Below are positions 7,101 through 60,979 of a DNA stretch of 63,887 nucleotides, piece by piece. The stretch covers positions 14,111,594-14,175,480 of the forward strand of contig JARFYF010000055.1 of the NCBI GenBank assembly GCA_030265395.1. The letters are read 5' to 3'. Origin of the DNA: Rhina ancylostomus. Lineage: Eukaryota. Position 1 is the first letter of the stretch; each line of letters begins with the position of its first letter. The notes beneath the pieces were generated by a model. The model had not been told where the DNA came from. It saw only the letters and a program-made list of their open reading frames with translations, and ran no database searches. The position numbers and the translations under genes were made by a program.

Positions 7101-9674
7101 GCTTCAGCTGTTCTTCGGGCTCTGGCTTTTTGTAAATGGATAGGAAAGCTTTTTGGCACCTATGCCTTTTCTTTCCAACATTTTGCTTAATCTTTTGGTT
7201 TTTTTCCCATCTTTTCAATCTTCCAATCCAACTACCATTTCAGATTTGCCATTGATACCTTTATTAGATTCACTATGGAGGGATTTCTCCACTCCTGTAT
7301 GTTGCGGTAGACTTGGGTAGCCCAATATGTGCCCAGATAATGATATTATCTAGTGGCATAAGAATAATGTTTCCTTATTTTTGTTGGTTTTGTATCAGTT
7401 CCAGTCTTTTCAGAAGTAGCCTGAAAGAATATCAGGAGGGCAAAACAAGGTATGAATTGTTCATTTAGAGCAACTGATCACAAAGCTAATTTGCAGTATA
7501 ATGAACAATGCTTCTTATTGGTGGATTATTTCTTTTTCGAGCTATTAAGATCTTTATCCCTGAGTTCCTCCATGGTTGCAGGCCAAACATCTTTCTTTCC
7601 TTCCTCCAGCCATAAATTTGCTCTCCAACCTCCCCTGCCCCCACCACACCCTTGTTGAATTCTTTTAACTAAGTTTCTATTTAAAACTTGATTGTTACTT
7701 TTATTGGACCTAAGTGAGAACTTTTGTTCTCCTTTCCTGTCCCATGACAAATGTCTTGGTTTCTAATTTTTTTGATGAAATATTGCTTATTAGACATCCT
7801 ACAATCTTTACTTCCCCTAAACCTTTGCTCTCTTGCTCCCAAACTGTTCCTTTTTGCTGTTTTGCTCCCTACTTCTGATGGAATTTAACAGAAAGGAAGG
7901 CTTTGTTTTCTAAGGAATTACTTCTCAGAGTATCTGAGGTGAAGTATTGACTGCTGATCATGGGTAGCAGTTTCCATATTTGACACATTGTGTAACTGAA
8001 AGAGGTTGTAACATTTTCTTCTGAGCTGGTGCAAGTTTGTTTTATGGAGTTCCAAGCATGTCTTTAGTTAAAGCACCTGGATAAATGTACCTAGTTGATG
8101 AAGCTTCTGCCCACATTGCCTGCAAGAATTCACTGGACTCATGTCAGATAATGCCCATCTTTGTTATGCCTTTGAGAAGAAATGCCACTGATGCCTCTTC
8201 CTGGTTAGATATGTGAATGTGAGAAAAGTGGAACAGTGCAGGAACATCAGATGAAAGATGGTTACAAGAGCCATTTATTCCCCTAAATGTCTAATGGTGT
8301 TGTTTGTTGGGAAGTTGATTGCGCAATCAGTTGGTGCTGGAAAACCCCACCAAATAAAGTATTAGTTCTACTTTGCTAGAAAATGATGTAATGGTTCTTT
8401 TTTCTGTACCTTCAACTTTCCAAAGGATGTTTCTTGAGTTGTTACAGCAGAATTGAATCACTCACTGTAGCATTTCTTCATTATGCTCTTGTAATTATAA
8501 TATGCTATAATTGTGCAGGGTTTGGGCTTCTGCAGTCAGAACAAAGATTACATTTGTGTACTTCTGTGGACATGCCTATAGCCAGATTTCTTTGCAGAGT
8601 CTGGACTGTACTTGATCAAGCAAATTGTTTTAAAGCTATGTATTGCAGGAAAAGCTAGTAATTCATCTAGCTTAACAAAGATTTATCCATTATTGTTTGC
8701 TTTACCCTTGTTGCTCTGTCATTTGGACTTTTATTTCTGTTTGCTGTTTCTCTTGCAATTAATCAGATTCGTGTGATCTTGATATAGTGTGTAGAGTGAA
8801 AGAAGAATTTCACAAGCTGATTTTTAAAAAAATTACTAGTTTTTGTGAGAGATATTAATGCAATGGTGTAAACAGCCAGTGTTTCCAGGTTTGGTATAAG
8901 CACAGCTCTGAAGTTTCTTCAATCCATGTACCTCACTTTGATTATCAAGTCATGTGTTGGTTGTGCTTCCTACTTTCTCAAGTACTGTCCAGCCTGACAC
9001 TAAGACTAATATTGATAATCTGTTCAGTTGGGGATAATTTTGTGCTGGATTTAGATATTCAAAATATCTTCACTAAAGATATAGAATGCTAATGGAAAGA
9101 ATCTTTAAACCATCGATTTCTGTTAAGTTTAACCCATTTTGCCCTTTGGTGACCAGATTCGTGTAGAATTTTCTGATAATGTAATTGTATGCACAATGTT
9201 TTTACAACTGTTACTAAAACATCTTGGGTGTGAAAGGCCTATTGTGTAAAGGCTGAAGGATATCTAAGGCAGTGTAACCCTGGGAATCTTAATTTCGTAA
9301 TTTTTATTCCAATTTATACGTTTTGTTTACACAGCTTTTAAGGTCCTTACTTTGGTATCTTTAGCCAGAAATACCTTGTGCCAAGTAATTCTCAATTACA
9401 ACTCTGTAGTAGAGTTTTATAATTGTGGAGCTGTACTGTTTCTGCTGAATAGTTTTGAGACTCCTGTTGGGTGTTTCTTTCTATTTCTAGCAGAAGTGAT
9501 GTGTGAAAACTTTATGCAGCTATATCAATGACATGGAGATCCCAGTGAAAGTATTGCATATTTCTGCTGTTTTCTAACAGTTGAGCTGAAGTTTTAAATG
9601 TTATTTAGATTTTTAAACATACTCATTCAGTGTGTTGCCTTTCATTACTGAATGTTTTTATTTTTATTTTGCAG

Positions 9675-11240
9675 AACAATACCTATACTGCCATGTCTGA
9701 CTCCTACCTACCAAGTTACTATAGTCCATCTATAGGGTTCCAGTATTCATTGAGTGAGGCTGCTTGGTCTACAGGAGGGGATCCACCTATGCCCTATCTG
9801 ACATCGTATGGACAGCTAAGTAATGGAGAGCATCATTTTCTACCTGATGCCATGTTTGGACAGCCAGGGACTTTGGGTAATACTCCTTTCTTGAGCCAGC
9901 ATGGGTTTAACTTCTTCCCTAGTGGTGTGGACTTCTCGGCTTGGGGGACCAGCAGTTCTCAGGGACAGTCCACTCAAAGCTCAGGCTATAGCCCCAGCAG
10001 CTATGCCTATCCTCCTAGCTCACTGGGTGGAGCTATGATGGATGGACAGTCAACTTTTGCCAACGACACACTGAATAAAGCACCAGGTATGAATAGCATT
10101 GACCAAGGAATGGCAGGACTGAAAATAAGTGGTGGTGAGGTCGCTAGTAATGTATCTAAAATGGTAGGTTCTGCTGTTGGGAGCAATCCTATATCGACTA
10201 TTTCAAATAATGCGATACCTTCTAATCCTATGCCACCAACTACAATTGCTCCCCCCAAGCCAGCTTCATGGGCAGACATTGCAAGCAAGCCTGCAAAACC
10301 CCAACCCAAGAAAGCAAAAGGTGGGTCTAGTGGGCCGTCTCTCCCACCTCCTCCAATTAAACATAATATGGATATTGGTACCTGGGATAACAAAGGGACA
10401 GTGGCCAAAACTGCTCCTCAGCCATCAACTCAAGCCAGTGGCCAGCAACAAGGCCAGCCACCTCCGCTGCCGGTGAACCAGCAAGTGGTCAATATGCAGC
10501 CTCAGCAAGTGTCCTCTGGCCAGCAGCAGCAGGTGGCCACACAGCCAGTGCAGCAGCAGCCACAGCCAAATCGCTGGGTTGCACCCCGCAACCGTGCAGC
10601 TGGCTTTGGCCAAAATGGAGTGGATGCTGGAGGCATTGGGCTGGCGCATGGGAATTCAAATGCTGCCTCTGTGGAAGCACACCCAGTTTTGGAGAAATTG
10701 CGTTCTGTCAACAACTACAACCCCAAGGATTTTGACTGGAACCCTAAACACGGACGAGTTTTCATCATTAAGAGCTACTCTGAGGATGACATCCATCGCT
10801 CTATTAAATATTCCATTTGGTGTAGTACCGAGCATGGCAACAAGAGACTGGATGCAGCCTACCGTACCATGAACGGCAAGGGTCCTGTTTACCTCTTGTT
10901 TAGTGTCAATGGGAGTGGTCACTTTTGTGGTGTTGCCGAGATGAAGTCGACTGTAGACTACAACACTTGTGCTGGGGTGTGGTCTCAGGACAAGTGGAAG
11001 GGACGGTTTGACGTCAGGTGGATATTTGTGAAGGACGTGCCCAATAGTCAACTGCGGCACATTCGCCTGGAAAACAATGAGAATAAACCTGTCACCAACT
11101 CCCGAGACACTCAGGAGGTGCCCTTGGAAAAGGCCAAGCAGGTTCTGAAAATTATTGCCAGTTACAAGCATACGACCTCCATCTTTGATGACTTTTCTCA
11201 TTACGAAAAACGTCAAGAGGAGGAGGAGTGTGTTAAAAAG
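9675..11240 (+). CDS. YTHDF2: YTHDF2 coding exon 4: P/Q/G-rich low-complexity region plus YTH m6A-binding domain
   Basis: Lies within ORF 9630-11264. TTTTGCAG acceptor, AAG|GTTGGT donor, 1566 nt. Contains [37 protein letters not shown], the YTH domain [26 protein letters not shown]...VWSQDKWKG (aromatic-cage Trp intact) and [21 protein letters not shown] and IIASYK match the DF2 paralogue. Confidence 0.98.
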
Positions 11241-13059
11241 GTTGGTCATACTAAAAAATGTTAATTGGAAAGTTGTAAAATGGTGAAAATTGTCAACTTT
11301 TGAGAGTCGATTGAAACTTTTGGGTATTAAGTGTTAAGTTTTTAATATATACATATACAATAAAATCTTTTCTTAAACCCTGGTAATCCTAATTTTGTCT
11401 GAATTTGATGACTTATAAATGTCACTAGAATTTCAGAAAATAATGAGGGATGTGAAATATTCAGTGTACTCTTGCACTGTAATCCCTTGCCCTGCAATTA
11501 TTAACATTTTAGATTTTGTCCTTCCAAGCTTGGGTAGCATCTGGAGAATATTTTGAGTTGTATTACAATAGGATGAAGCATTGAGAGAAATTTAAGGCGA
11601 TGAATTCAGGGTGTCACACAAGTATATCACATAATAAAAGTGTATTGGCTCAAATGTGATTTCTCTTTTCACTTATAGTTTGAAAAATAAAGCTAGTGAT
11701 GACAGCGCTGGCCATGTTAACATGAGATTTGAATCTAGCTACTTATATGGTTGAAGGAATTGTGTGGGTAAATTCATTAAAAGATTAGGATGCAGCTACT
11801 GAACAGCATTATGATGATTATCCATAATTATTCCTTACAAAACCATGTTTTCATTTTGCTGTGTCGTCACCAGTAGAAAAAGTTACTCAACACCTCACTT
11901 CAGTTGACTTTGACTCTAAGCTCTAGGCTGTGAATTAGTGCAAAAAATTCTTCTCTGGATTTAAATCTCTACGGTTTGCATTTTAGACCAGCCCCAACTG
12001 GACAGACTAAATGTTCTTAATGTATGAAAGGAATTTGGGGGCATCTCAGTTCCAGTTAGATTTTAATGGAGTGATGTGCAGTTGTACCTAATTTGGTATT
12101 GTGGCAATCTAAGAAGAAAGATCATAATGGCTGCAACAGTGGGAAACCATAGTTGGAGGGCAGTTTTCTTGAATAATAGATTACTTTAAGTTCTTTAAAT
12201 CCAAATGTAATGTCTATTTTAAATGTGTGTTAAATTCCCCACACTAATAGACTTCATAATAAGCATAAAAAAAGATAAACATGGATGTCTGAAGTTATAG
12301 TTTCATTATCTTGTCCAACAAGTCAGATATCATAGTTCGAATCAAAAGTAACAATATAAAAATGCATACCAAATGATGTACTCTGAGCAAGGCACTTGAT
12401 TCTTAGATTTCGTCAACTCCCTCCACCATTCAGGTACAGTGGCTGCAATAGCTGCCATCTGAAGATTGCAGTGTGATGCCTCTCAACCTTGAAATTGCAT
12501 CATTTAAAAGATCATGGGTAACAGATTGATAGGAACATCACTATCTCTCGCCATCTGACTTGGGCATGTACGATCGCTTCATTATTGCTGGTCATTATTC
12601 TTGAACTCAATTATCATACTTCCATTATTAAATTTGTAGCACCACCAAGCTCTCAACAGCAGCTAGAGATGTACTTGCAAATGGGGACCAAGTATATAAT
12701 GGCTAGTGAACACAGCAAAATTCACCTTCACCAGAATATGTCTTAAGGCATTCTAGTGCAAATAAAGTCAGCCAAACTCTCTATGACTACTGTCCTCCAT
12801 TCCAGGCAACATCCTGGTGAATCTATTCTGCACTCTGTTGTTACCACATCCTTCCTGTCTTATGACCAGAATTTTGCACAAATATTTCATAACATGGGTT
12901 GGAACATCCTGAGGATGCGAGCACTAAAAAATCACAAGTTCTTAATGGCCAGGATTACTGTTTTAACCACTATGCCAATAGCAAGATGATTGAGCTTTAG
13001 CTGTGCTAGACATTGCTGGTAAATTGTAGCAGCTGTATCAAGTGTGTTTAGAATAGGTA

Positions 13060-13347
13060 GGACAGTGGCATAGTTAGCAGAGCTGCTGCTTCAGCTCCAA
13101 GGTTGATTTCCAGTGCTCTGTATGGAGTTTGCACATTCTCCCTGTGACACTGTAGGCTTCTGGGTGCTCTGGTTTCCTCCCACGTCCCAAAGAGGTGTAT
13201 TGATGGGTTTGACTGACAGTGTGACTGGAAAATTCTGTGGGGGCAGGAGGGAAGTTGGCGTCGATGAGGAATTGATGTAGATGGGTACCTGATAGTGCAT
13301 GTAAACTTGTGTCTAAGGGCAGTTCACATGCTGTATAACTCTGATTA
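13060..13347 (+). mobile_element. HE1/V-SINE-like copy (decayed)
   Basis: TGGAGTTTGCACATTCTCCCTGTG...GGGTGCTCTGGTTTCCTCCCACGTCCCAAAG core. Confidence 0.8.
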
Positions 13348-45235: not shown

Positions 45236-48200
45236 ATTCATTACTCGTGACACCCCCTGAAGACTGAGTAACATTATCAATTGCAGGTAACAAGTTATCA
45301 TAAGCACAAGAAGCATGGGAGCAACTGCATTAATATCTCACAGTTTAGCCCTCATTGCCCTAAAGATAGATAATGTCCTCTCAGTATGCAGCAATCAGTA
45401 TTGTCCTTTCCCTGCCAGAACACTAGAAACAGCAAGTATGCACCTCAGTGTACTGTAACCAGTGAAAGTCTCCTGTATAAACAGTCCTACACCTCACTGC
45501 TCCTGCTTCTGGGTGATGAATTATAGTCAAACCTGATCCTGTTCTCAGCAAGCACATGCTACCATTGTGGATGGAGAGGAAGAGGTGCAGTGGGATTTGG
45601 GGAATATCACTGGATCAGCAGCAGATATCCTTTTATGATTTACTCTTCTCCATAAGTGTTAAGGTCCATTGTAGAGAAATTAAAGTCACACTGGTGATCA
45701 GCTAACTCCACACAGTGCATGGAGCAAACCCAGAGCTGAATGGAGCACAGGATTTACTGCTTAAAAGATTTGGGAGACTTTCACTGGTTAGAGTACACTG
45801 AACAGGACACTTGCTGATTCGTGGCAGGGAAAAGGCATTAGTGGTTACAGCATACTGAGAGGTCATTACCTATCCAAAGGGCATTCAGGGCTAGACTGTG
45901 AGATATTGATCAGGATGCTCCCATTTTTCTGCTGCTTATGATGACCTTTTATACATAGTAGATAATGATAGTCTGTAGGGGATACCAACAGCAACTAATG
46001 AATATGAGTCAACTATCCAACCCATTGAGCCTGCTTTACAACAGCTATTGGAAACACTGCAACCATGGAAACTTGAGAATGCAATTTCTGCAATAACATC
46101 AATACTTGAAATGGGTGTGAAGAATATCATAGTTTTCCATCTCAAGATCAACACTCATTGCCAAATCTCATACTTATAGAGTGGTCCAGTCAGATGAGGC
46201 CCAAGGGAGACTGTGTACCCAAACAGCCACATAGATGGATTAATGAGCACCTTCTGGACAGAATGGAGCATCATGAGCAAACGCTCTTGGTGATAAAATT
46301 ATATTTTAAATTATCTAATTGGACAAGGGCAAAAAGTAAAGCAAAATGCAGAAATTTCTGGAAATAAACAATAGATCAAGTGAGCAAGTCAAAGAGAAAG
46401 GTGGAGTGAGGCTCGTCTGATGCCTTTTATTAGCAGTGTAGAAATATACTCAGCTCCTTCCGATGTTCTTGTTATGCTATATTTTATCTCAGAACATAAC
46501 AAACTGGCTTCTCACTGGGACAGATTAATTGCAAATTGCATGAAAATGTAGCCAAGTTGTGCGCTGCAGCTAATTGATCTTTGCTATGTTGGTGCTTTGT
46601 CCCTGTAACACATTCTGATTGTTATTAAGTGAACTCAGGGTAACGTCATCTGGAGATCAGTGTGATGGTTAACTTCATTCTCCAGATCATTGATTGGATC
46701 TCCCTTTGAAACATTGTTTTTTTGCCTTTATAATCAAGATTAAGATCCGAGATTGATGCCTGCAAACCTACTGCGGAAACCACACATAAAAAGCGGATAA
46801 TGTGCCACACGCCTGAGGGACAATATTCCGAGAGGTTTCAGCTCCCATTTCCAAAAGTCCAGCACAGAATCCCGCCGTGGATCACATGACGTGTCAATTG
46901 ATCAGCAATGGCTGCTTCAATACCCACAGTCCTCCGTGTTCCAGAACCCACCTTATCTATTGCATTAATTTTAATGCTGCGGGATTGTACTGCATCCCGT
47001 GAATGTTGTGCACCTGTAGGGTTTTATTTTGTTCCAAATCCGCCTGAAGCAGAATGTTAAAAGAAAACATGAGCTTGGTTACTGCTCGGAGGGGAACCTA
47101 GAACATTACTCTTTGATTCCGAGATACCAGAGGACAATCGAGAATGTGTTCTGACTTCCACACTACTTATTGCAGTTTTGGGGCAGGGCTGTTCAGTTTG
47201 CCATATTAAATTCCTACAAGGACGCACTGAAAGCAGAACGCGTTTAATATCGTTTGCTTTAATGCCCCTTGAATTAGTGAGAAGTTAATTTTATCAGTTT
47301 TCTGTGAATTTTCAGCAGGTAAAAACAAAGGCCTCCAACTACAATCCCATTCCTTGTTTCCCTGCTGGCTCTCGTAGTTGGCTATAATGGCACTGCATCG
47401 TGACACAGAGACAACCATGACTGATGGGCAGATCAGCTGTGTTTTTAAATGGCAGGACAAGCTTTATGATCTAAGTAGACCACTCCCGCCCTATACCAAC
47501 GTTTTCCTCCAGTAATACCCTTCCATTTAATTACCTGGAGTGGAGAATGTACTCCTTAGAGTAGACAAGTTAAAGGGGAGACTCATTAGCATTTAAAACT
47601 AAGTAGTTCAGATAGAGTGACCAGAATAAATGGGTTCTATAGCCAGATGGATCGGTACCTAAAGAATACAGAGCGATGGCAAAAAAAAAGCGCTCGTGTG
47701 CGGAGTTAGGTACGGAATTGGGCGGCTTGGCGGTGATGAGAGAAGGTATTTTGTTCAGACAATGTTGATCTTGAATGAAATGCCTGAGAGGGTGAATGAA
47801 ACCTCAAAGTTCAAAGGGAATTAGAGAAATCTGAAGACGTAATTAATTGCTTGGCTCTGGTGAAATGGTGCAGGAGAACGACTAAACGGCGGGTAAAGTA
47901 TGGGATGGACGCGATAGGCCGAGCGGTCTCTTTCTGGGCATGATCATTCTGTGACTCCATGTTGTATCACTAGCGTAGTTTATTCATTACCGAATTAAAA
48001 CGTCGAACGCGGAATTAAACTCACTCAACACCAAAAGGTTCGGCAAGCACTTCAAATCTTTATTCCTGCAAAATAGTTAAATTGGGAANNNNNNNNNNTG
48101 TTGGTAATTTCATCAGCTTGCATGCTTTCAGTACCGCGTTATATATTTTAATTAACTAAGGCCCAAACGCAGCTGTTTTTTTTAATGTGACTCTGGGTTC

Positions 48201-48645
48201 AAACCTCCAACTGAGCCCAGGGGACCGGCGTTCCCCCAGGAGAGCGAGCAGAGATACGCTCCATCAAACCCCAGGACACATCCGCCGTTATAAATATGGA
48301 TAACCCCACCGCGGAGAACAGGCTTTGAAAGGAAATTGCGACAACGCCTGGCGTTTGTTGTCTGCACCTGTTTCTGTGTGTTTAAAAAATACTGCGATCC
48401 CTTTGGACCTGAATGTTGTGGAATAAAACTCTAATCTAGTGGGAGAAATATAGCGTTCCCTTCCCCCCTCGACTGATGAATATGCAAATATTAGAAATAA
48501 GCGAGTCACATATCCTCCGTTTGTAAACTGACTTTGACTGGCTGGAACCCCTCCGGGAGCTGTTTCTATCAAGAGTCCCAGACATGTATGCATTTATTTA
48601 ATTCCTAATGGAAATATCTATCAAAAAGTAAGAAGGAAAACAGAA

Positions 48646-48683
48646 ACACACACACACACACACACACACAACCACACACACAC
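48646..48683. repeat. Interrupted (CA)n microsatellite
   Basis: Seen directly. Confidence 0.9.
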
Positions 48684-51600
48684 AGCAACGTTATACGATT
48701 TGAATTTTCCTTTGGCCTTGGCAAGTATTTGAAAGTCGTGCTTAGAAATGTCACGTTCATTCTCCTTATCCGGCGTCACCCAAAATAATTTATCTCTCAC
48801 CCGGAGGTAGTTATCAATGCACGAAAATCCAGGAAAATGCAGTGTTTTCTTATAGCTTACTGAATCTCGTTGTATTTTTGTGTGTTACTGATATTTAAAT
48901 AAAACAGAGTTGGAGGATGGAAAATATTCGAACAATCCCCGTTGAAAGTCAAGCATCCGCGCTCCTATACTCGTGTATGTCCACTCTGCCGGCCACTTTA
49001 ATGGAAACTGCTGGTGTGAAGCTGTCACGCTGTACTTGAATCCTCCCACCTGTAGTGGCGCTCCATTGCCTCTTGGGAGGAAAGTAAAATTGGAGTGCCA
49101 CATTTACTTTGCTTCCTCATAAATATGTACATCATCACTTATAATGGGAAACGTGGACTGAATATACATGTGTACATAAATCTGTATTACAATAATGTGT
49201 CATCAATAGCGTATATCCAGGGAAGTGTTATAGAAAATATATTAATGGAAATAAACTTGCTCGTTACTTAAGTGCGAGCTGCATACAAGAAATAATGATG
49301 AGCCTACATTGCTCCAGCTTCTACATGTATTTAACTATTACACAGCATAGAAACAGGCTGTTGGCTCCTGTAGAACCTATTTAAGCGTTCTTTCATCCCT
49401 CTTCGTCAACACATCTTTCTATTCCTTTCTTTCTCTTCCTTAGCCCGTCTTTCCCTTATTTCTGCTAGTTACAGAAATAATTACGCAGTTCCATGTTTTG
49501 GAGAGTCTTTATTATTTCTCAGTTTGTTTTCACTTACTACATATAACGTAACCAGTATATATGTCCTCCCAACCTGGTTTATGGCGGTGNNNNNNNNNNA
49601 AATGTTATAAAGTGACCTCTGACACACTCTCCAGTCTGGGGAGCTAGAGAATTGTTCTAATAGTTTAATGCTATCCCCACTCAATGTGTTTAAGTAAATC
49701 TATTTCTATACCAGTGGTCTTTGTCAGTGGGAGTCACTGGGCCCGAACGCTGCTGTTTGTTAACCACGCTAATTAAAATGAGTGAACCTGTTCGATTTGA
49801 GGTCAACGGTGGTTTGACGAAGTAATACTCAGGGCCTTCGAGTATGGTGTAAATAAAACGATTATTTGTATAACTATTTTTGTCTCTATTATAGAGTAGA
49901 ATCAGGAGAGAAAGTCGGGGACTGTGGAACACAAAGAGACGCAACCCCTGAAGGGAAAGCCTTCGGTTCAAGGACAGAGCAACCCGAAGGAGAAGACGGA
50001 AGGAAACGTCCTCGCGAAATAGGTCAATCGTCAAGTGCGGAAAATCCAGTGCTGCAGAATATGGAGTAGAGGTAAACGTCCCGGTCCCAGATCGCCGATA
50101 CACACGTGTGTATAACTATGGTTTGAGATGCTTGACCAAGGCCCAAGAGCTCAGAGATCCGTTATGTCGGCCTGCGCGGACTAGTCTGAGATTCCACTAG
50201 GCTGCATCAGACTGGCCATGCCCAGAAACAGTCGGCGCACTCTGCTGAGGAACACTCTTACCGCAAACAGTACATAGGAACTGGTGATTTTCTGTTGCGA
50301 TTCTACCAACCGGGGCAGAATCGGCGGAGGTTTGACTGGCGGAACGATGCCACACTTTTGAAGAAAGGTCTTTCCTACAACAAATAAAAATAGAAAATTC
50401 TGGAAATGCGCAGCGGTTCAAGCAGCACCTATGGGGGGAGAAGCAGAACTAATGTTTCAGAGAGCTGACCTTTCATTATAATGCAATAAACCAGTTAGTT
50501 GGATGAAAGGCCATCAACCACTTTTGCTCTGTTTCTCTCTCTCTGGATGCTGCCTGACTTGCTGAGTATCTCCAACACTCTTTGTTTTTATTTCGGGTTT
50601 CCAACATCTGTATTTCGGGGTGGGGGGGGGGGTGGTGGGGTGGATCATTGTTTACGTTAAGGCTTAGTGCGTAACATTCTCGGGGTCTATAAAATGAAAA
50701 TGAGCGATACACGTAGAACATTTGTAAAGGAAGACTACACTTGTTCAAGTGGTGAACCTAACATGTGGAACTATAAATATATCGCGACCATTATTCAATC
50801 CAATAACAAATTCAGGAGAAACTTCTTTAAAAACAAAACCGGTTAAAATGTGCAAATCGTTCCCCGCAAGGCGAAAAATAAGTGCATTAGGAGCTAAGCA
50901 GGAGGGGTTCGCAGACCACGTTCCCTCGTATGTTTTGTTTTAAACTGGGCTGCATGATCGGTACCGTGAGTACTTCACAATATTTTGAAAGTAGGTGAGA
51001 GCACTTTCCAACTCTGTTCCCTGCAGGATGAATTCTGGTTCTGTGTGGTGCAGGCCAGCGTTTGGAACAGCGTCGGATCATTGGTAGGGCGTAGGTTAGT
51101 GAGAGGGGCTAGAATTAGTGATGAGGTCGAGGCGGTTGATGGCATAGGGCCGAGGTCAGTGCTTGAGAGTAAGACCAGTAATTGGGTAGTCCAGGAGTCA
51201 CTGATGAATTGACGTTCGCTGAAAATGAACGATGTGATTGGGGTTAAGGATAAATCTGAAGTTAATTCTTTTTTTAAAAAAATGTCCCTCAAAACAAATA
51301 ACGATTCCAGAGCGGAACCAGTATAACCACACGAATTGTCGTTGCATTTGTGTTCCCCTCTATTATTGCGACGAATATAAATTTGGTAGTAAGATGGGGG
51401 CAAAACAGAACAATTATTTGATTTCAAACTCCATTTTCGTTCTATGCTGATCTTATAAACCTTAATGTCCGATAATTTAGCTTCCATAGCCCAGATTTTT
51501 GCTGTACTATGGAAGGCGGTTTTGTAAGATACTTTAAACCAGCGAAAGCACCCTGAGTCTGCCACTTTCTCATTGCTTGCATCTTTTCGCAAAGCATAAC

Positions 51601-51803
51601 CAATTATTAACTTACAAGCACTTGCTGTTTGCCGACAGTCTCTGAGTGTTTAAATATATTTATTTTTAAAATCGTGTTTCGTATCAATTTCTGCCTTGTA
51701 TTTAAATTCACTCACTGAAGGAGCAGTCTCGGGACACCCAATTTTTGATTGAATTGCTTCTGTGATTTGGCCATTCCACACACAGTCCGTCCAGGCCATT
51801 AGT

Positions 51804-51858
51804 TATGTGCACGCGCGCACACACGCGAGCACACACGCGCGCGCGCACACACACACAT
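51804..51858. repeat. Mixed (CA)/(CG) alternating purine-pyrimidine tract
   Basis: ATGTGCACGCGCGCACACACGCGAGCACACACGCGCGCGCGCACACACACACAT. Confidence 0.9.
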
Positions 51859-53393
51859 CCGTTGCGCATTAATTGCTTGTACGTTTATAGATACATTTAG
51901 CAGATCGAAATTCTAAAGTAGCGTGAACCTATGAATGATCTCTCCCCATTTCCACCGTACTTCTTCTGTCCCGGGGCGCACTCAAAGAACCTTCATTCTA
52001 TCCCATGCTAAACAGTTCAATTGGATCCGTTGCGTAAAGATCCAGTTTGCCTTTTTGAGAATCCTGCACTTATTCAGCTCGTAATCTCTGTGAGCTAGCG
52101 ATAACAATTCGAAGCAGTTTATGATCAAGTCATAACTCCTCGTGGTCTGGCAGCACCTAATTCCCGCATCAAATTGTCTCTTCTAGTTCTATGTAGTTAT
52201 CTGGCCATTTAAGTGTAAACTCTCTCTCTCTCTCTCTCTCTGTGAAGCAAGGGGTGGTAGAAATAAGAGATCTGCTTTTAAGACCTAACGAGCGATCAGA
52301 GTTTTGAACTTGCCACTAATTTCCAGTACTTTAAATGTATTTATTTTAAAACTTTAAAGTAATAAATTAACGCAAATACATTTCCCATTCCCACGCTGAT
52401 CCACTATACAGAGCTGTGATGAAGCATATGTGAAGGTTTGTGTAATCAGAGCAGCGGGCGCCCGCCTCGGACTGAGAATTTAACCAACACATTCACTAAA
52501 TGCACTCTGATGGTGCTGTTGACACCTTAGTCTGTGACTGAGTGTGTGTGGGTGAGTGTATGTTTGTGTATGTGCGTGTGTCTACATGTCACTGATGCGC
52601 CCCTGTCTGTCACTGGCCGAGGATAAATCTCCTCTACGGAAACACAAAGCTTTCAGGTCAAATTAACTTTGAAGGACTCAATTGCCGATTATTATCCTGC
52701 TTCACGTTTCCTCTGATATAACCCCCTAACATAAAATCCTCATAAATAAAGAAATGGATTCCAAATTCCTCCGAACTCTATTTTCCCGGACAGTTTTAAT
52801 TTTAAATCCCCGCTGGCCCTAAAAGATAAATTAATGCAGTTTCTCCCGTCAGGAATGTAATTCAAACAGGAATGTAATGTAATCACATTAAGAAGTATGT
52901 CCTTTTAAAATAGTCCCCAAAATTCCCGTCGGGGTCCCCAGATTCCGGCTGGGGTTGGGGTGAGATATCGTCTTCCCGTCCCTGGACCACCCTCCGAATC
53001 CTTGCAAGCAAAGTGCTGCTCACGGACACAAACAGGCAGCGACTAAGACGAGCGCTCTCCAACGCACAGACCCAGCTTGGCCGGTGAACCTCAGGAACCC
53101 GTTGTTTCGCGGCGTGGTGTCAGAAAACATTCTGGTGCAGCTGCGCTTCCCGGTTTAACCGGCATCGGGGTTTGCAAAACACAGACAGTTCACACCAGTT
53201 AATATGATTACAAGTTCACCCAGGGCAGTACACATTTATCTATAGTTTATTTCTCTCCGCACATTCCATGCACCAATACATTTAATGTACATCACACACC
53301 TTCTCTTTGAAACATTTAGCAATATGTTACATTTCATTTACCTACCAGATGACAAGGGTTTATATCTGGAGTAACATATTAAGGTCGTCTTTT

Positions 53394-53476
53394 CGATTTC
53401 TCCCTTGGCATTCACCGCGTGCCTTAATTGTATGATATTAAATCAAGGTCCGCCGTGAACACGGAGAGTGAGACCG
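53394..53476 (-). ncRNA. MIR124: miR-124 precursor hairpin (5p 53442-53463; mature 3p 53405-53426)
   Basis: Reverse complement reads ctctc-CGTGTTCACGGCGGACCTTGAT-ttaatatcatacaat-TAAGGCACGCGGTGAATGCCAA-gggag. The 3p arm is identical to canonical miR-124-3p and the 5p arm differs at one position. Lower stem pairs, and a CNNC motif (CGAC, 53384-53387) lies about 18 nt past the 3p end. Confidence 0.98.
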
Positions 53477-54377
53477 TTTGCCCTTTCCCAATCCCGGATT
53501 CCGCCGGTGCTGTAAACATTGAGACCTTCTTGCTCCGTTTTATCTGCGCGCTTGTTACCTGTATGGCCGGACTCCTCCTTCTCCGCATCCCCGCTGTAAA
53601 TGTCTCTCCTGTTTTGGGCTGCTTTGCAACAATCATGTGCTAAGGTTTCGATGCCTTATATTTTTCGGATGAACCACTTTTCTATTCGGGCGAGAGGAGC
53701 TCTATATTGCTGGTCCTTGTCCTTCGTGCCTCTCTCTTATTAAAGGGAGGGCGTTCAAAGTAGGACAGTGTCCCATNNNNNNNNNNNNNNNNNNNNNNNN
53801 NNNNNNNNNNNNNNNNNNNNNNNNNNNNNNNNNNNNNNNNNNNNNNNNNNNNNNNNNNNNNNNNNNNNNNNNNNNNNNNNNNNNNNNNNNNNNNNNNNNN
53901 NNNNNNNNNNNNNNNNNNNNNNNNNNNNNNNNNNNNNNNNNNNNNNNNNNNNNNNNNNNNNNNNNNNNNNNNNNNNNNNNNNNNNNNNNNNNNNNNNNNN
54001 NNNNNNNNNNNNNGAAATGCACCATTCTCAGTCTGCAACTCTCCAAAAATGCGCCTTTCCCACCCAAATCGATATCGAACCAATGCGACAGGGGTGGTGG
54101 GGGGTTGGGAGGCGGAGAAGAGAAGTTATTTCCATATTTGTTGTTGGAAAATGTGGAAGACGAATGTTTTGTTTTGGAGAGGTTTGTTTTTGCGAGAGGG
54201 GTGCAACTTGTGACTTCAGCATCCGCTGCGTTCCCTCCCTTTCCACGGGAGAAGGGATGTGCTCGCAGTCACATTACGCACTCCAGCACAGATTATGCAT
54301 CTACTGCAGCCTGAGCCTTGCCTCAGGACCACAGCTGGTGGGATCAGACTCTACCCCAACGGATCACTGGCCGCTCA

Positions 54378-54385
54378 TGACGTCA
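54378..54385. promoter_or_regulatory. Palindromic CRE (TGACGTCA)
   Basis: Perfect TGACGTCA in a CpG-rich block about 0.9 kb upstream of miR-124. Confidence 0.55.
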
Positions 54386-55063
54386 GCACCAGTGCTGCCT
54401 CTCGCAGAGGCAGTTCAATCCAACAGAAACTGCTTGCTCTGTATCTCGGGACTGCGGCGGCTGCAGAGGCAATGTTAGCAACCGCATTGACACAAGCATT
54501 ATTTGTTTTAATTTAAATCCGCCGTCACAAGTAGCTTCCATCAGATCAGCAATGATTACCCCCCTAGTGAAAGGTCAGCGTGTCAAAAACACAGCATCTG
54601 ATTTCACCAGACACTGCCGAACAAATGGTTATCACTGAAATGGCCAAAAGTTTGTTCATTTTATATGTGAGATCGAAGGGAAAAAGCGTATCTACTTTTC
54701 TTGTTTAAAACACCACTGGAACACTGATCTTTGTATCTCATCTGTTCGGCTGATTTATATGGCTAGGGTTCGACAGCACCCAAATTAAGATTAACCGATG
54801 CATTGTCAAACTGCAACTGGAAGATTTTTCTATCCCAATTTGTAACCAAGGAGGATTAAAAAGAACATTTTAGCGAAGCAGTTCAACGCAGACGGTCAAC
54901 AATGATCCTCCATGTGGCATCTCAGAAGGCCCAAGTTATGGGACTGCAGAATGCGCATGTTCCCTTGATCACTCACTCGCATGTGTTTGTGTGCCCGCAC
55001 TGTTGGATATATAGATATAAACCGATGTGTCAGGATCTTGATTGATTAGGATCAGAATGGACC

Positions 55064-55071
55064 TGACGTCA
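55064..55071. promoter_or_regulatory. Second palindromic CRE (TGACGTCA)
   Basis: Perfect TGACGTCA next to AT-rich TTTTATAAAT, about 240 bp from the RE1. Confidence 0.5.
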
Positions 55072-55309
55072 ATTAATTTTATAAATTAACTATCTATCCC
55101 GCGGCCCTCGGAGAGTTCAAAAAGGCAGATGAAGCCGCGATCGATATATACAATTAATTTCTTTAACTCCATTCTCGTGCTGAAGAAAGACATCCATCTC
55201 TCGACGTGGTTATCAAATGTATCATTCCCCCCCCCCTCCTTTGATCCTAATTGTGTAATCCCGCGAAGGATTATTGCCCGGGACAGTGGAACGGGTACCA
55301 ATTATGAGA

Positions 55310-55330
55310 TGCGCTGTCCGTGGTTCTGAA
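55310..55330 (-). promoter_or_regulatory. RE1/NRSE (REST binding site)
   Basis: Reverse complement TTCAGAACCACGGACAGCGCA versus consensus TTCAGCACCACGGACAGCGCC (19/21, canonical half-site spacing), about 1.85 kb upstream of the miR-124 hairpin. Confidence 0.88.
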
Positions 55331-56197
55331 TCACCCCAAATGCATAGAGAGGAGCAATAAAACCTCCCGCGACTGTGGGGTGATTCACTCGGTTCATTAA
55401 CGGGACCATTTGAAAACAAAAAGCACAGCACTGATACGATCACGTTCTCCAGGACACCGTGGATGGGCAGTAATTACCAGCGATGTCAATTATGTCCTCT
55501 TCCAAAGAATGAATAGCAATATACCTCAATGAATTGATAGTTTAACACATTTAAAATATATGACTTAAATACACGAAAGTAATCTAAAGGGAACATATAG
55601 CGAAATACTCAGATTACTTCTGAGCATGTACTTTTATATATATACGAAATTTGAGAAAATGTTGTGCCCTTTACAATCTGGCGAAATAAGAAATATCTCT
55701 TCCGCTCACCTATGTCCTAAGAATGCAATGACTAAAATACCACAGGCCGAGGCCCCGTTAAAGATTCCTTGTCACCTGATGNNNNNNNNNNNNNNNNNNN
55801 NNNNNNNNNNNNNNNNNNNNNNNNNNNNNNNNNNNNNNNNNNNNNNNNNNNNNNNNNNNNNNNNNNNNNNNNNNNNNNNNNNNNNNNNNNNNNNNNNNNN
55901 NNNNNNNNNNNNNNNNNNNNNNNNNNNNNNNNNNNNNNNNNNNNNNNNNNNNNNNNNNNNNNNNNNNNNNNNNNNNNNNNNNNNNNNNNNNNNNNNNNNN
56001 NNNNNNNNNNNNNNNNNNNNNNNNNNNNNNNNNNNNNNNNNNNNNNNNNNNNNNNNNNNNNNNNNNNNNNNNNNNNNNNNNNNNNNNNNNNNNNNNNNNN
56101 NNNNNNNNNNNNNNNNNNNNNNNNNNNNNNNNNNNNNNNNNNNNNNNNNNNNNNNNNNNNNNNNNNNNNNNNNNNNNNNNNNNNNNNNNNNNNNNNN

Positions 56198-56252
<55 letters not shown>
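56198..56252. repeat. Compound (CT)n(CA)n microsatellite at a gap edge
   Basis: Seen directly. Confidence 0.95.
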
Positions 56253-56253
<1 letters not shown>

Positions 56254-58989
56254 CCTCTTTTCTACAACTCACTAATCCCGGGCCAGATGAGGTAGCACAG
56301 AGATTACAGGCCGATCTGTTGCAGATCTTGGCAATGGGGCGGCCTCTTTGAATTATTCCTCTTTCCACCTCCCCACAGCGCTTTTGTTCCTATTTTTATT
56401 CTATCTCCTGCTCTTACTATCTGCATAAATTGATGCGTTGAGCTCGGGTCACAAGTCTGGCGTGTGTGTATGGGGAGGAAGGAGGGGGGCTGTTAATGGT
56501 TGGGTGGCTCAGAGGTCCTTTGAAAGCTGGAAGGGGAGGGGAGTTGCTCAAACAAGACTAATAATTGCAGTCAGCTGTCTGACGCGTGCCCTCTACAAAT
56601 CTGACACCGGGACACCAGATGGCCCAACTCCGGAGTTCGAGATAAATCCCCTCCCCCCACCCCATCTCTAACCCGGTCTCCCTCAACCACATCTCCCAAA
56701 ATGTTTCCAATGCCCTTTGTGAGACTGCAGCAGAAATGGCACAAACCGACGCATTCGCTAGGCAGGACAACGGTTGTCTGGCTAGTGCAGAGAGCCTTGG
56801 ACCTGCAGATCTCGGCTCGACCCTCAACTCCCGCACAGAATATTCTGTTCAACTACAGCTCGAACGGAACTCATTTTATTGGAGGATAAGGATTCAAATA
56901 AATAACCATCATCTATATCAATATTTCTCTTTTTGATTAATTCGGGGGCAAGGGGAAAATCTTAATGCAAGATCCGAAGGACAAATTAAAACTAAACATG
57001 AACAATTTAAAAAAATGAAAACAGACTGTGATACCTCTTTAATTCGTTCTATTTAATATTATAACTAAAATGCAAACTAGTTCAATGCTTGAAAACACAG
57101 ACAAGGCCAAGGTGGACTTATTTCCATCATTTATAGCAGAAGACGTCAAGACCATTGTTTTGAATCGCGATTTTCCCTACGAGCGCAAATTTTATGTGAA
57201 CCAAAAGAAAGGACATTTAAAAGAATCTTTGAGCTATAACAACGGGGAGTTATAGCCAAACAACGAGATTCAAATATACGGGGAAAGACTCCTTTTCAAA
57301 CTCATGTAAAGACTGCATTTTAACGTATCCGGCAGATACTTCAACTGGCTGACCAAATTCTGATGAAAACTTTAAAAACAATTTGGAAAATTCGAACTAC
57401 GTATATTTATACACCAGATTTTTTATGTTGGGCAACATAATAAAAACGGCATGGATTCGTCTCAAAAGCAGAGTTTGTAAAATAAAATCTAATGTTCTCC
57501 CCTGATACACCCTAACCCTGTTTATCCAAGACAAATCCATTGCTGGATTTAAACAAAACTACTGAACGGCAGTATGACAGACAGTGCACTCCAGCGAGTG
57601 CATTCAGTTGCGGGCTGGTAGAATTATTTCGGGCAACATTTATAATTTTTTGGAAGATTATTTTTGTCGCATGGATGAGGAGAATGGAAAGGTTTTTTTT
57701 AATCGTCCCGTTCTCGGAAGTATCTTAAACACGTTTTCCTTTTTTTCAAAAAAAATGTTGTCTAAATATACAGAACAATAAATGAGCAACGGCGGGCTGT
57801 CAAAAGACACATCGATCTGTTTGGAATGGTCAATGTTCCCACTGCGACAGAAGGTGTGCGGATCCTGTCTATTCTACCACAGGTTTTAATCCCGCTGGTT
57901 TCTCGCCTTTAAAAGAATAGAGCATTAAAACAAATACAAAAGATCAATTCTAAGCCAACGTTTCCACTTGTTGTGCAAGCAAAAATCTCGTTGTAAAATA
58001 AAATTTCGATCTAATTGATTAGATCACCAAGAGAAATGCAATTGTTTATGACAATTTCTAATTTTCTGACGAAGGCGAGAGGTGGGATGAGCCGATTAGA
58101 TGATCACAAATCCTACTGTTTGACGTTTGAATACAAGCTCGTAATGAAGATAATCGGCAGAGAGAAAACCCTCATCCATTCGTTCTAGAACCCAGAGTTG
58201 AGGTTTCTACATTTAATGCTACTTACAGCCAGCTTCTGAAGCAAACCATGCGACGTTCTTTCAGACTAGAAGTCAGCTTTTGCAGTGATTTTTAAACGGT
58301 TATTTTAATGAACAAACAGGTTCTCAAGAGGTGCAATCCACGGAAACTAAGCTCGATGTGATCTGCTTTGACAATTTTTCTCTGCATTGTAAAAGCTTTC
58401 ACATTATTTTGGAACCTGGGAGCTGAGAGGAAACGTCTCCACGCAGATCAAAGGCGGGGCGAGGGGAAAGTGGTGCTGAAGGTGGGCCGGATGGAGGTGA
58501 GGGGGTGGGAGGGTGGGGGAAGAATTTGGGGGAGAGAGAAGCAGAGAGGGGGTTCTGGGGTGGGAGATGATGAAGTGGGNNNNNNNNNNNNNNNNNNNNN
58601 NNNNNNNNNNNNNNNNNNNNNNNNNNNNNNNNNNNNNNNNNNNNNNNNNNNNNNNNNNNNNNNNNNNNNNNNNNNNNNNCGGGGGTGGGAGATGATGAAG
58701 TGGGCGAGCCCTGAGCCACAGCCTCAGCATCCTTTACTGCTTTCTCCCCTGGGACGGGGACTAGCCATTTATCATTAACCCTTTCATTTCCTCACAGGCT
58801 GTATTCAATATTTGTGATAAAACTGGCGCTGTGCTTGCAACAATCGCCTTTCCTGGCTCTTATCCAGCATGACGAGGGGGTGGATGTGTTACAGGGAGGT
58901 GCAAAGCACAACTATGATTCTGTCACGGCCTTTGAGATTCCAACCCCGTTCCACTGATTCATCTGGGATGAAGGATGGGGCGGTATCTA

Positions 58990-59265
58990 TAGTCAAGTTG
59001 GGTTTATTGTCATATGCACAAGTACATGTGTGCACAGGTGCAGTGAAAAACTTACTTGCGGCAGCATCACCGGCACATAGCAATAAAGGCACAACATTCA
59101 CAAAAAAAAACATAAATTATACCCAATATTACAAGAAAAAACACAATTAGAACAAAAACATGCAGTCCATTGTAGTGCACAGTGGTCACAGTGTTGCTAC
59201 ACCGAGGTAGTGATTAGGGTTGTGCAGGATGGTTGAAAGGAAGTAGCTGTCCTTGAACCTGCCGT
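58990..59265 (-). mobile_element. 3' end of the same Rex1/Babar-like family
   Basis: GTTTATTGTCATATGCACAAGTACATGTGTGCACAGGTGCAGTGAAAA closely matches 44313-44362. Confidence 0.8.
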
Positions 59266-60979
59266 TCTTTGACCCCTATGCCGACTCCAGAGGCAAATAC
59301 AAATACACTCTTACGGATGATGGGTGAGGAAGTCAGAAATAAAAACAGGAAACGCCGGTAAAACACAGAAAGTCGGGCAGCATCTGAGGAAAGAGCAGGC
59401 GAGGAAGGGCTTGGGATCTGAAGCTTTAACTCTGTTTCTCTTTCCACCGATGGTGCCTGACCTGCCGTGTATTTCCAGCGTTTTTGTTTTACTTCAGATG
59501 TTCAGCTTCTGCAGTTTTTTTAAGTATTCATTTACGAGTGGCAATTATGCTCGGAATCGGAGATCTGAAACTAGTCTGGTGTTTCTTTCCTGCAGACATC
59601 GCATCCCCTTCACATGGAAAATAGAACTTACAATTTAAAAGGACCACCTTGGGTAAATGAAGGTACTAAACCTGCAATACCGAAATCCTTTGAAATGTGG
59701 ACACTGCCGTCTTTCTGATGGGACCTAGCAGGGAATTCCAACCGGTGACAAGCAGCATTGCGCCTCTCCTTCCCCTCCTGTGCACAAGGGAGTGGGGAGC
59801 GCTCTGTGAACAATTCCCCAGATTCATCCTGTTCATGTCAACAGAGGTTTAAAAGAAAATAAACAGATAAAAGTCGCCTGTGGTGATTACATTTTTTATT
59901 AGGTTCCATATAGTTCATGAGATATGTGAAAACCTGCCATCTCTTACTGATCTGTCTGGAACAGGAACCTACACAAAACACTTTTTTTTCTGAATTAGTC
60001 ATGTTCTTGCAGGTCCTCAAAACGGGTTAAGTCTCCCTCTACCCCCCCCCCCCACCCCGTGTTCCAGGTTATTTCTGAAGTTGTTCCCACTTGTGAGAGA
60101 CTAAAACAGGGATAGTAGCTGTAAGACAAGTTTCTTAAACTTCTGGCAACTTTCCCCCTCTGTCCCTTTCCCCCTATTTTTCCTTTTTGTCCCTCCTCCT
60201 GACCCAACTGGCCGCCCTCACCCTATGTCTTCCTCCTCCCCTACCCTCCCCCTCTTCCTCTGCTCCTCACTTACACACTTCTCCCTTCCCCTTCCCCACC
60301 TCTGTTCCACGTTCCACCATCCTCTCCTACCAGATTCCATCACTTTCAGCCCTTTGTCGCTTCCATCTATCGCCTCCCAGCTTTTNNNNNNNNNNNNNNN
60401 NNNNNNNNNNNNNNNNNNNNNNNNNNNNNNNNNNNNNNNNNNNNNNNNNNNNNNNNNNNNNNNNCCCTCCATCTTTTATACTGGTTATGCTCTCTTCCTG
60501 TCCAGTCTAGATAAAAGTTCTCGGCCGCAACATTGACTGTCCATTTCCCTCCGTAGATGCTGCTTGACCCACTGAGTTCCTCCAGCGCTTTTTGTGTTGC
60601 TCCATATTCCAGCATCTGCAGTCTCTTGTGTCTCCCGTCAGCCATAAGTCAGCCTCTGATAGGGAATCGCTACCACATGGAGTAATCAAGGGTGGTAATG
60701 TGGGAGGAACCCATTTCCTCATGGAGTTGTGGAGTACAGGGGCAGGAAATGGAGTCACGGAACCCGGTAAGNNNNNNNNNNGTAAGAAAACATGAGGGCA
60801 AAAGACATATCGAGGGGACCTCCAACCATGACAGTTCCCCTGAGGTGTGTCATAATCTTCAAAGGTTTCCCAGAGGTGCATCAATATTCACAGGAGCCCC
60901 CTGAGTGTGTCAGTAATTTCAGTGATTTACAGGATTGGGTTGATTTGGTGACTCCTCAACTGTGTCAGGATATAACCCA

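What the first reader, a model, noticed from the sequence alone, without database searches (positions are those of the whole stretch)
54200..55340. REST + CREB cassette upstream of miR-124 (candidate pri-miRNA promoter)
Within about 1.1 kb upstream of the hairpin region are a 19/21 RE1 (55310-55330), two perfect CREs (54378, 55064), an RFX-like GTTAGCAAC (about 54474) and an NRF1-like TGCGCATG (about 54952). REST repression of mammalian miR-124 loci is established. An RE1 at this paralogue implies the REST-miR-124 neuronal switch predates the genome duplications and that this copy is still regulated.
Basis: partly seen in the sequence, partly recalled or inferred. Interest (0 to 1): 0.7.

Follow-up and report, generated by a model that had tools for sequence, protein, structure and literature searches.

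The report
REST site at ray's fourth miR-124
In a shark-or-ray genome, a near-perfect match to the binding site of the nerve-gene silencer REST lies 1.9 kb upstream of a miR-124 copy that humans lack, so this copy is likely silenced outside neurons as the mammalian copies are; this extends known regulation and does not show that it predates the genome duplications.

Summary
The motifs are at the stated coordinates, 0.9-1.9 kb upstream of an intact minus-strand miR-124 hairpin (53400-53470). The RE1 (19/21) is far beyond chance and lies in unique DNA. The two CREs together are unlikely by chance, but the distal one is mutated in two related organisms. The RFX and NRF1 matches are partial sites. 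The genome is an elasmobranch's and has four miR-124 copies. This one lies next to YTHDF2, a copy humans lack. The other three copies show no canonical RE1 within 100 kb upstream or 30 kb downstream (assembly gaps aside). The RE1's flanks align to none of them, and RE1s are known to turn over quickly. So REST control of this copy is likely, but an origin before the genome duplications is not shown. The start site is unknown. A weak 63-nt similarity to the miR-124-1 copy lies further upstream (56561-56623), so the cassette may sit inside the transcript. REST and CRE sites at miR-124 loci are published for mammals. The scan has noted RE1s at other shark and ray genes, none at miR-124. Verdict: new member of a known kind.

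The parts
53400..53470 (-). miR-124 precursor hairpin; mature 3p arm 53426-53405, first 20 nt identical in all four copies of the genome
   Evidence: Rfam RF00239, 82 bits against a cut-off of 49; folds as a hairpin, z -2.87; four copies
54378..54385 (.). Proximal perfect CRE (TGACGTCA), 908 nt upstream of the hairpin
   Evidence: unchanged in organism D, whose contig 54130-54456 has all 11 of its substitutions listed, none inside the CRE
54474..54482 (+). RFX-like half site only; likely not a full X-box
   Evidence: 54480 A>G in organisms D and E
54952..54959 (+). NRF1-like 8-mer; partial, likely chance
55064..55071 (.). Distal perfect CRE; not conserved in two related organisms
   Evidence: 55068 G>A in D and E, no change listed in B
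55310..55330 (-). Canonical RE1/NRSE, 19/21, 1840-1860 nt upstream of the hairpin; fits the published 17-nt degenerate NRSE exactly
   Evidence: unique DNA
56561..56623 (-). Candidate duplicated conserved element shared with the MSRA-linked miR-124 copy (69% over 71 columns, same orientation, about 3.0 and 3.2 kb upstream); possible promoter element, weak support
   Evidence: 4 of 500 shuffles reach the score; best of 6 pairs; unique in the genome at BLAST sensitivity
47000..60000 (.). CpG-rich domain (observed/expected 0.5-1.0, against about 0.1-0.3 over most of the window) spanning the hairpin and the cassette
9609..11264 (+). Large coding exon of YTHDF2, convergent with miR-124; synteny marker for this copy

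Best explanation
This is a canonical RE1 motif 1.9 kb upstream of the YTHDF2-linked miR-124 of an elasmobranch, likely bound by REST to keep the primary transcript off in non-neuronal cells and progenitors, with the proximal CRE likely helping CREB-family factors switch it on in neurons. Shown: the motifs, their rarity, the intact hairpin, the CpG-rich domain and the identity of the copy. Inferred from mammals: REST binding, recruitment of Sin3 and CoREST, CREB activation and neuronal expression. The start site is unknown and may lie upstream of the RE1, near 56.6 kb, which would put the RE1 and CREs inside the transcribed region.
For: RE1 beyond chance locally (0 of 2000 shuffles). Genome-wide the RE1 core is enriched: 97 matches against 17 expected, and 60 of the 97 carry the consensus left half against 1.5 expected (the 60 counted by eye from the list). 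The chance that one of 97 sites falls within 2 kb upstream of one of four miR-124 copies is about 0.0004. The site is not in a repeat. The contigs of D and E run through the RE1 with no listed gap or substitution, and that of B through 20 of its 21 letters. The segment 54935-55350 differs at 17 of 416 letters in D, against 105 of 1768 for the whole cassette. Human miR-124-1, -2 and -3 have RE1s at -21.7, -3.8 and -2.4 kb, and -2 and -3 have conserved CREs at -1.9 and -1.0 kb (PMC1794552, Tables 1 and 3). REST silences all three mouse loci (review PMC8269442). No coding exon was recognised by eye among ORFs of 110 aa or more in the 90 kb beyond the window, and the next CpG-rich stretch is about 65-70 kb from the RE1.
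Against: No binding, expression or start-site data. One mismatch is at core position 6 (core positions 2-9 and 12-17); that variant is less enriched (9 seen, 2.1 expected). RE1 conservation is not proven: 5 differences each in D and E, and 3 in B, were counted but not listed, and the RE1 lay 21-41 nt from the end of the laid stretch. The distal CRE is changed in D and E. In mouse neural stem cells miR-124 stayed low even after REST deletion (PMC3349273). The REST gene itself was not searched for in this genome.
Confidence: 0.72

Rival explanations
1. The RE1 descends from a single site at the one ancestral miR-124, so the REST-miR-124 switch predates both vertebrate genome duplications; the other three elasmobranch copies lost or degraded theirs.
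For: With the three human loci, all four duplicate lineages carry an RE1 in at least one species. Order and spacing recur: human -2 (RE1 -3.8 kb, CRE -1.9 kb), human -3 (-2.4, -1.0) and this copy (-1.9, -0.9). The YTHDF3-linked copy here has a CRE at -2024, close to the human -2 position, and a 504-N gap at -3949 that covers where the human RE1 would fall. A weak shared upstream element links two copies.
Against: 0 of the 3 other copies has a canonical, degenerate or split RE1 in about 130 kb each (7,930-13,336 N each). The nearest core matches are over 8 Mb away. No flank similarity at the RE1 or CREs. RE1 turnover is fast. No jawless-vertebrate or amphioxus data were obtained.
Confidence: 0.3
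2. The RE1 arose by point mutation at this copy within cartilaginous fishes, independently of the mammalian sites, under the same selection to keep miR-124 neuronal. This is compatible with the best explanation and differs from the first rival only in history.
For: Only 1 of 4 copies has it; flanks unalignable; only 12 of 85 frog RE1s in human-homologous DNA have a human RE1; non-conserved RE1s still recruit REST.
Against: Four independent gains at four duplicates of one gene is less parsimonious. Flank alignability is not expected to survive about 500 million years. Gaps may hide sites.
Confidence: 0.35
3. The RE1 is a chance or decaying site, or serves another gene, and the cassette is only CpG-rich sequence.
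For: CREs are about 30 times denser in CpG-rich than in CpG-poor DNA of these loci (4 in 53,887 against 1 in 408,465 bases). About 2 sites of this left-half variant are expected by chance per genome. One CRE and the RFX half site are changed in relatives.
Against: Position within 2 kb of a known REST target class (p about 0.0004); full-length 19/21 match; the 5' CpG-rich end of YTHDF2 is about 54 kb away and no neuronal neighbour was seen.
Confidence: 0.1

Closest known systems
REST-repressed, CRE-bearing mammalian miR-124 loci (Wu and Xie 2006, PMC1794552; Conaco et al. 2006, seen only as cited in PMC1794552 and PMC8269442)
   Same: Canonical RE1 a few kb upstream of the hairpin, a perfect CRE 1-2 kb upstream, same order
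   Different: This copy is the YTHDF2-linked duplicate; humans have only three loci (8p23.1, 8q12.3, 20q13.33). Here only this copy has a detectable RE1, whereas all three human copies do. No binding data.
Canonical RE1/NRSE sites of non-mammalian vertebrates (Xenopus, PMC4430910; Fugu count cited in PMC1557810)
   Same: Fits the 17-nt degenerate NRSE used for frog; one of a genome-wide enriched class
   Different: No miR-124 or ythdf2 entry was found in the 5 frog supplementary files held, whose target lists are of protein-coding genes
mir-124 precursor family, Rfam RF00239
   Same: Full-length match, 82 bits; mature arm intact
   Different: Small changes in the 5p arm and loop relative to the other three copies

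Membership tests
Canonical RE1/NRSE | Match to the 21-nt consensus with a 2-nt spacer | tested here: met
   19/21; exact fit to the published degenerate 17-mer
Canonical RE1/NRSE | Beyond chance and not repeat-borne | tested here: met
Canonical RE1/NRSE | Conserved in related species | tested here: inconclusive
   No change listed in B, D or E, but 3, 5 and 5 differences were unlisted and the site was near the end of the stretch
Canonical RE1/NRSE | Bound by REST and repressive | not testable with these tools
   needs ChIP, EMSA or a reporter
Functional CRE | Perfect palindrome conserved across species | tested here: inconclusive
   Proximal CRE unchanged in D; distal CRE changed in D and E
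RFX X-box | Two half sites forming the full box (consensus recalled) | tested here: not met
   Half site only; one letter changed in D and E
NRF1 site | Full 12-nt palindrome (consensus recalled) | tested here: not met
   8 of 12 letters; full site absent from the window
pri-miR-124 promoter | Transcription start within the cassette | not testable with these tools
   Only assembled contigs were available; they cannot show a start
Element inherited from before the genome duplications | Homologous RE1 or flank at paralogous loci | tested here: not met
   0 of 3 paralogues; no flank alignment at the RE1; gaps remain
mir-124 (RF00239) | Score above the gathering cut-off; hairpin with intact mature arm | tested here: met

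The most novel reading that the evidence does not exclude
The RE1-CRE-hairpin layout is the ancestral vertebrate miR-124 control region, and it was sorted reciprocally after the genome duplications. Elasmobranchs kept a canonical RE1 only at the YTHDF2-linked copy that mammals lost, while mammals kept RE1s at the other three. A 63-nt element at 56561-56623 shared with the MSRA-linked copy would be a surviving piece of the pre-duplication promoter.
Probability: 0.2. Interest if true: 0.55.

Novelty: new member of a known kind. Interest (0 to 1): 0.32.

Why it matters
If bound, the site extends REST control of miR-124 to cartilaginous fishes and to a fourth duplicate that cannot be studied in mammals. 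That dates the link to at least the common ancestor of jawed vertebrates, or shows repeated gain. The uneven pattern (1 of 4 copies here, 3 of 3 in humans) makes a concrete test of whether the switch is inherited or re-evolved. The mechanism itself is textbook.

Tried and rejected
RNA evidence: no RNA holder on record was listed. Two runs guessed to be RNA gave short, low-depth contigs over 54130-54456, 54724-54925 and 55053-55210. One was flagged as probably DNA, so neither is used as evidence of transcription. Organism C gave no laid contig. Two metagenome pattern scans found nothing. Paralogue flank comparisons gave only the hairpin, interspersed repeats, weak low-complexity matches and the one weak element; 5 of 6 pairs were within shuffle range (4-29 of 40 shuffles reached their score). 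Weak RE1-like matches (5-6 mismatches) occur 1-3 times per 130 kb at all four loci and were treated as background. An apparent splice donor near 54976 was dropped because its GT is changed in E. TATA-like AT-rich runs were not used to place the start. The reversed-pattern controls (0 and 2) contain a fixed CpG and understate chance, so composition-based expectations were used instead. Three papers sought by id were not held (meant as Mortazavi 2006, Conaco 2006 and Kok 2012). Searches listed no report of an RE1 at a cartilaginous-fish or YTHDF2-linked miR-124; only listings were seen for most hits, and subscription papers are missing. The bioRxiv supplements of 10.1101/2021.09.01.458616, which may name this paralogue, were not seen.

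Full report
Observation. Rfam finds one family match in the window, mir-124 at 53400-53470 on the minus strand, and the region folds as a hairpin. The RE1 at 55310-55330 has 2 mismatches to the recalled consensus. CREs lie at 54378 and 55064, an RFX-like 9-mer at 54474 and an NRF1-like 8-mer at 54952. They lie 0.9-1.9 kb upstream of the hairpin, across a 237-N gap, inside a CpG-rich domain of about 47-60 kb.

Chance. In 2000 dinucleotide shuffles of 54014-55781, none reached the RE1's 2 mismatches, 1 had two CREs, 5.75% had the NRF1 8-mer and 0.75% had the exact RFX 9-mer; generic RFX half sites averaged 2.55 against 1 observed. In the 2.2-Gb genome a strict RE1 pattern gives 15 matches (0.055 expected) and a loose core gives 97 (17 expected). 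Of the 97, 60 have the consensus left half (1.5 expected) and 9 the variant seen here (2.1 expected), counted by eye. The RE1 class is therefore enriched in this genome. The 181 nt around the site occur once. The NRF1 and RFX matches are incomplete sites.

Which copy. The window's large exon at 9609-11264 is YTHDF2: 97% identical to a shark YTHDF2 cluster and 89% to chimaera, and its YTH domain scores best against YTHDF2 structures. The genome is an elasmobranch's, probably a ray's (its YTHDF1 is 96.7% identical to a stingray protein). It has four miR-124 hairpins. They lie 43 kb from YTHDF2 (this one), 384 kb from YTHDF3, 48 kb from YTHDF1 and 145 kb from a PMSR/MSRA gene. Humans have three loci, at 8p23.1, 8q12.3 and 20q13.33 (PMC8269442, passages). 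Using recalled human gene positions, these match the MSRA-, YTHDF3- and YTHDF1-linked copies, so this is the fourth duplicate, absent in humans.

Paralogue test. About 100 kb upstream and 30 kb downstream of each copy were scanned. Only this copy has a site with 4 or fewer mismatches or a match to the published degenerate NRSE; no split site was found at any. The nearest core matches to the others are over 8 Mb away. Gaps limit this (7,930-13,336 N per locus). The YTHDF3-linked copy has a 504-N gap at -3949, where the human miR-124-2 RE1 (-3795) would fall, and a CRE at -2024, close to the human -1913. The YTHDF1-linked copy has only 26 N in its first 5 kb upstream, and neither an RE1 nor a CRE, unlike human miR-124-3. 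The flanks of the RE1 and CREs align to no paralogue. One pair of six gave a score above all 40 first shuffles: window 56561-56623 against -2985 to -2914 of the MSRA-linked copy. It is 69% identical over 71 columns, in the same orientation and at a similar distance, and 4 of 500 further shuffles reached it. After six comparisons this is about p 0.05, so it is suggestive only.

Cross-species test. Contigs of coded organisms were laid on the cassette (6 different runs of the 15 listed). Organism D differs at 105 of 1768 letters overall and at 17 of 416 in 54935-55350. The proximal CRE is unchanged in one D contig whose 11 substitutions were all listed. The distal CRE has G>A at 55068 in D and E, and the RFX half site has A>G at 54480 in both. 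No change is listed in the RE1 in B, D or E. However, 3, 5 and 5 counted differences were not listed and the site lay 21-41 nt from the end of the stretch, so its conservation is open. One search showed only 40 of 117 substitution rows.

Mechanism. By analogy with mammals, REST bound at the RE1 would recruit Sin3 and CoREST complexes and silence the primary transcript outside neurons. As REST falls in differentiating neurons, CREB-family factors at the proximal CRE would help activate it. These steps are inferred. Wu and Xie list RE1s near all three human miR-124 genes and conserved CREs near -2 and -3 (PMC1794552, passages and Tables 1 and 3). A review states that REST silences all three mouse loci. 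Against a simple switch, miR-124 stayed low after REST deletion in mouse neural stem cells (PMC3349273, passages). The start site is unknown. The CpG-rich domain extends about 4 kb beyond the RE1 and holds the candidate shared element, so the cassette may lie within the transcript.

History. All four duplicate lineages have an RE1 in some species, and the RE1-CRE-hairpin order recurs, which fits inheritance. But only 1 of 4 copies has one here, homology of the sites cannot be shown, and RE1s turn over. Only 12 of 85 frog sites in human-homologous DNA have a human counterpart (PMC4430910, passages; its 5 supplements had no miR-124 entry), and human-mouse turnover is documented (PMC1557810, passages). 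The site supports REST-miR-124 linkage in cartilaginous fishes. It does not by itself reach back past the duplications; that needs jawless vertebrates. Passages of PMC3145563, PMC3902484, PMC10605157 and bioRxiv 10.1101/2021.09.01.458616 were read and did not settle this.

Verdict. A real RE1 and one probably conserved CRE at an unstudied fourth miR-124 copy. It is a new member of a known kind. Interest 0.32.

Noticed in passing
   Followed up: partly
G000:C36 around 23,967,000 (L011, L013): The YTHDF1-linked miR-124 has AT-rich, CpG-poor upstream DNA with no RE1 or CRE; its CpG-rich domain starts at the hairpin and runs about 6 kb downstream, unlike human miR-124-3.
   Followed up: partly
G000:C119 around 37,734,700 (L005): The YTHDF3-linked copy has a CRE at -2024, near the position of the conserved human miR-124-2 CRE, and a 504-N gap where the human RE1 would fall.
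   Followed up: partly
all four miR-124 loci; window about 47000-60000: Each hairpin lies in or at the edge of a multi-kb CpG-rich domain (observed/expected 0.5-1.0 against 0.1-0.3 around it).
   Followed up: partly
window 54383-54390 (+) and 55281-55286 (+): An RE1 left half overlaps the proximal CRE, and an RE1 right half lies about 25 nt from the full RE1 in opposite orientation; both are half sites only.
   Followed up: no
G000:C36:2653817-2653872 and G000:C77:2372328-2372584: Paired RE1 cores 39 nt and 240 nt apart in the genome-wide list; neighbouring genes not examined.
   Followed up: no
L008, about 910 nt upstream of the mature arm of the MSRA-linked copy: An RE1 left half followed by GG but a broken right half; could be a decayed site or chance.
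   Followed up: no
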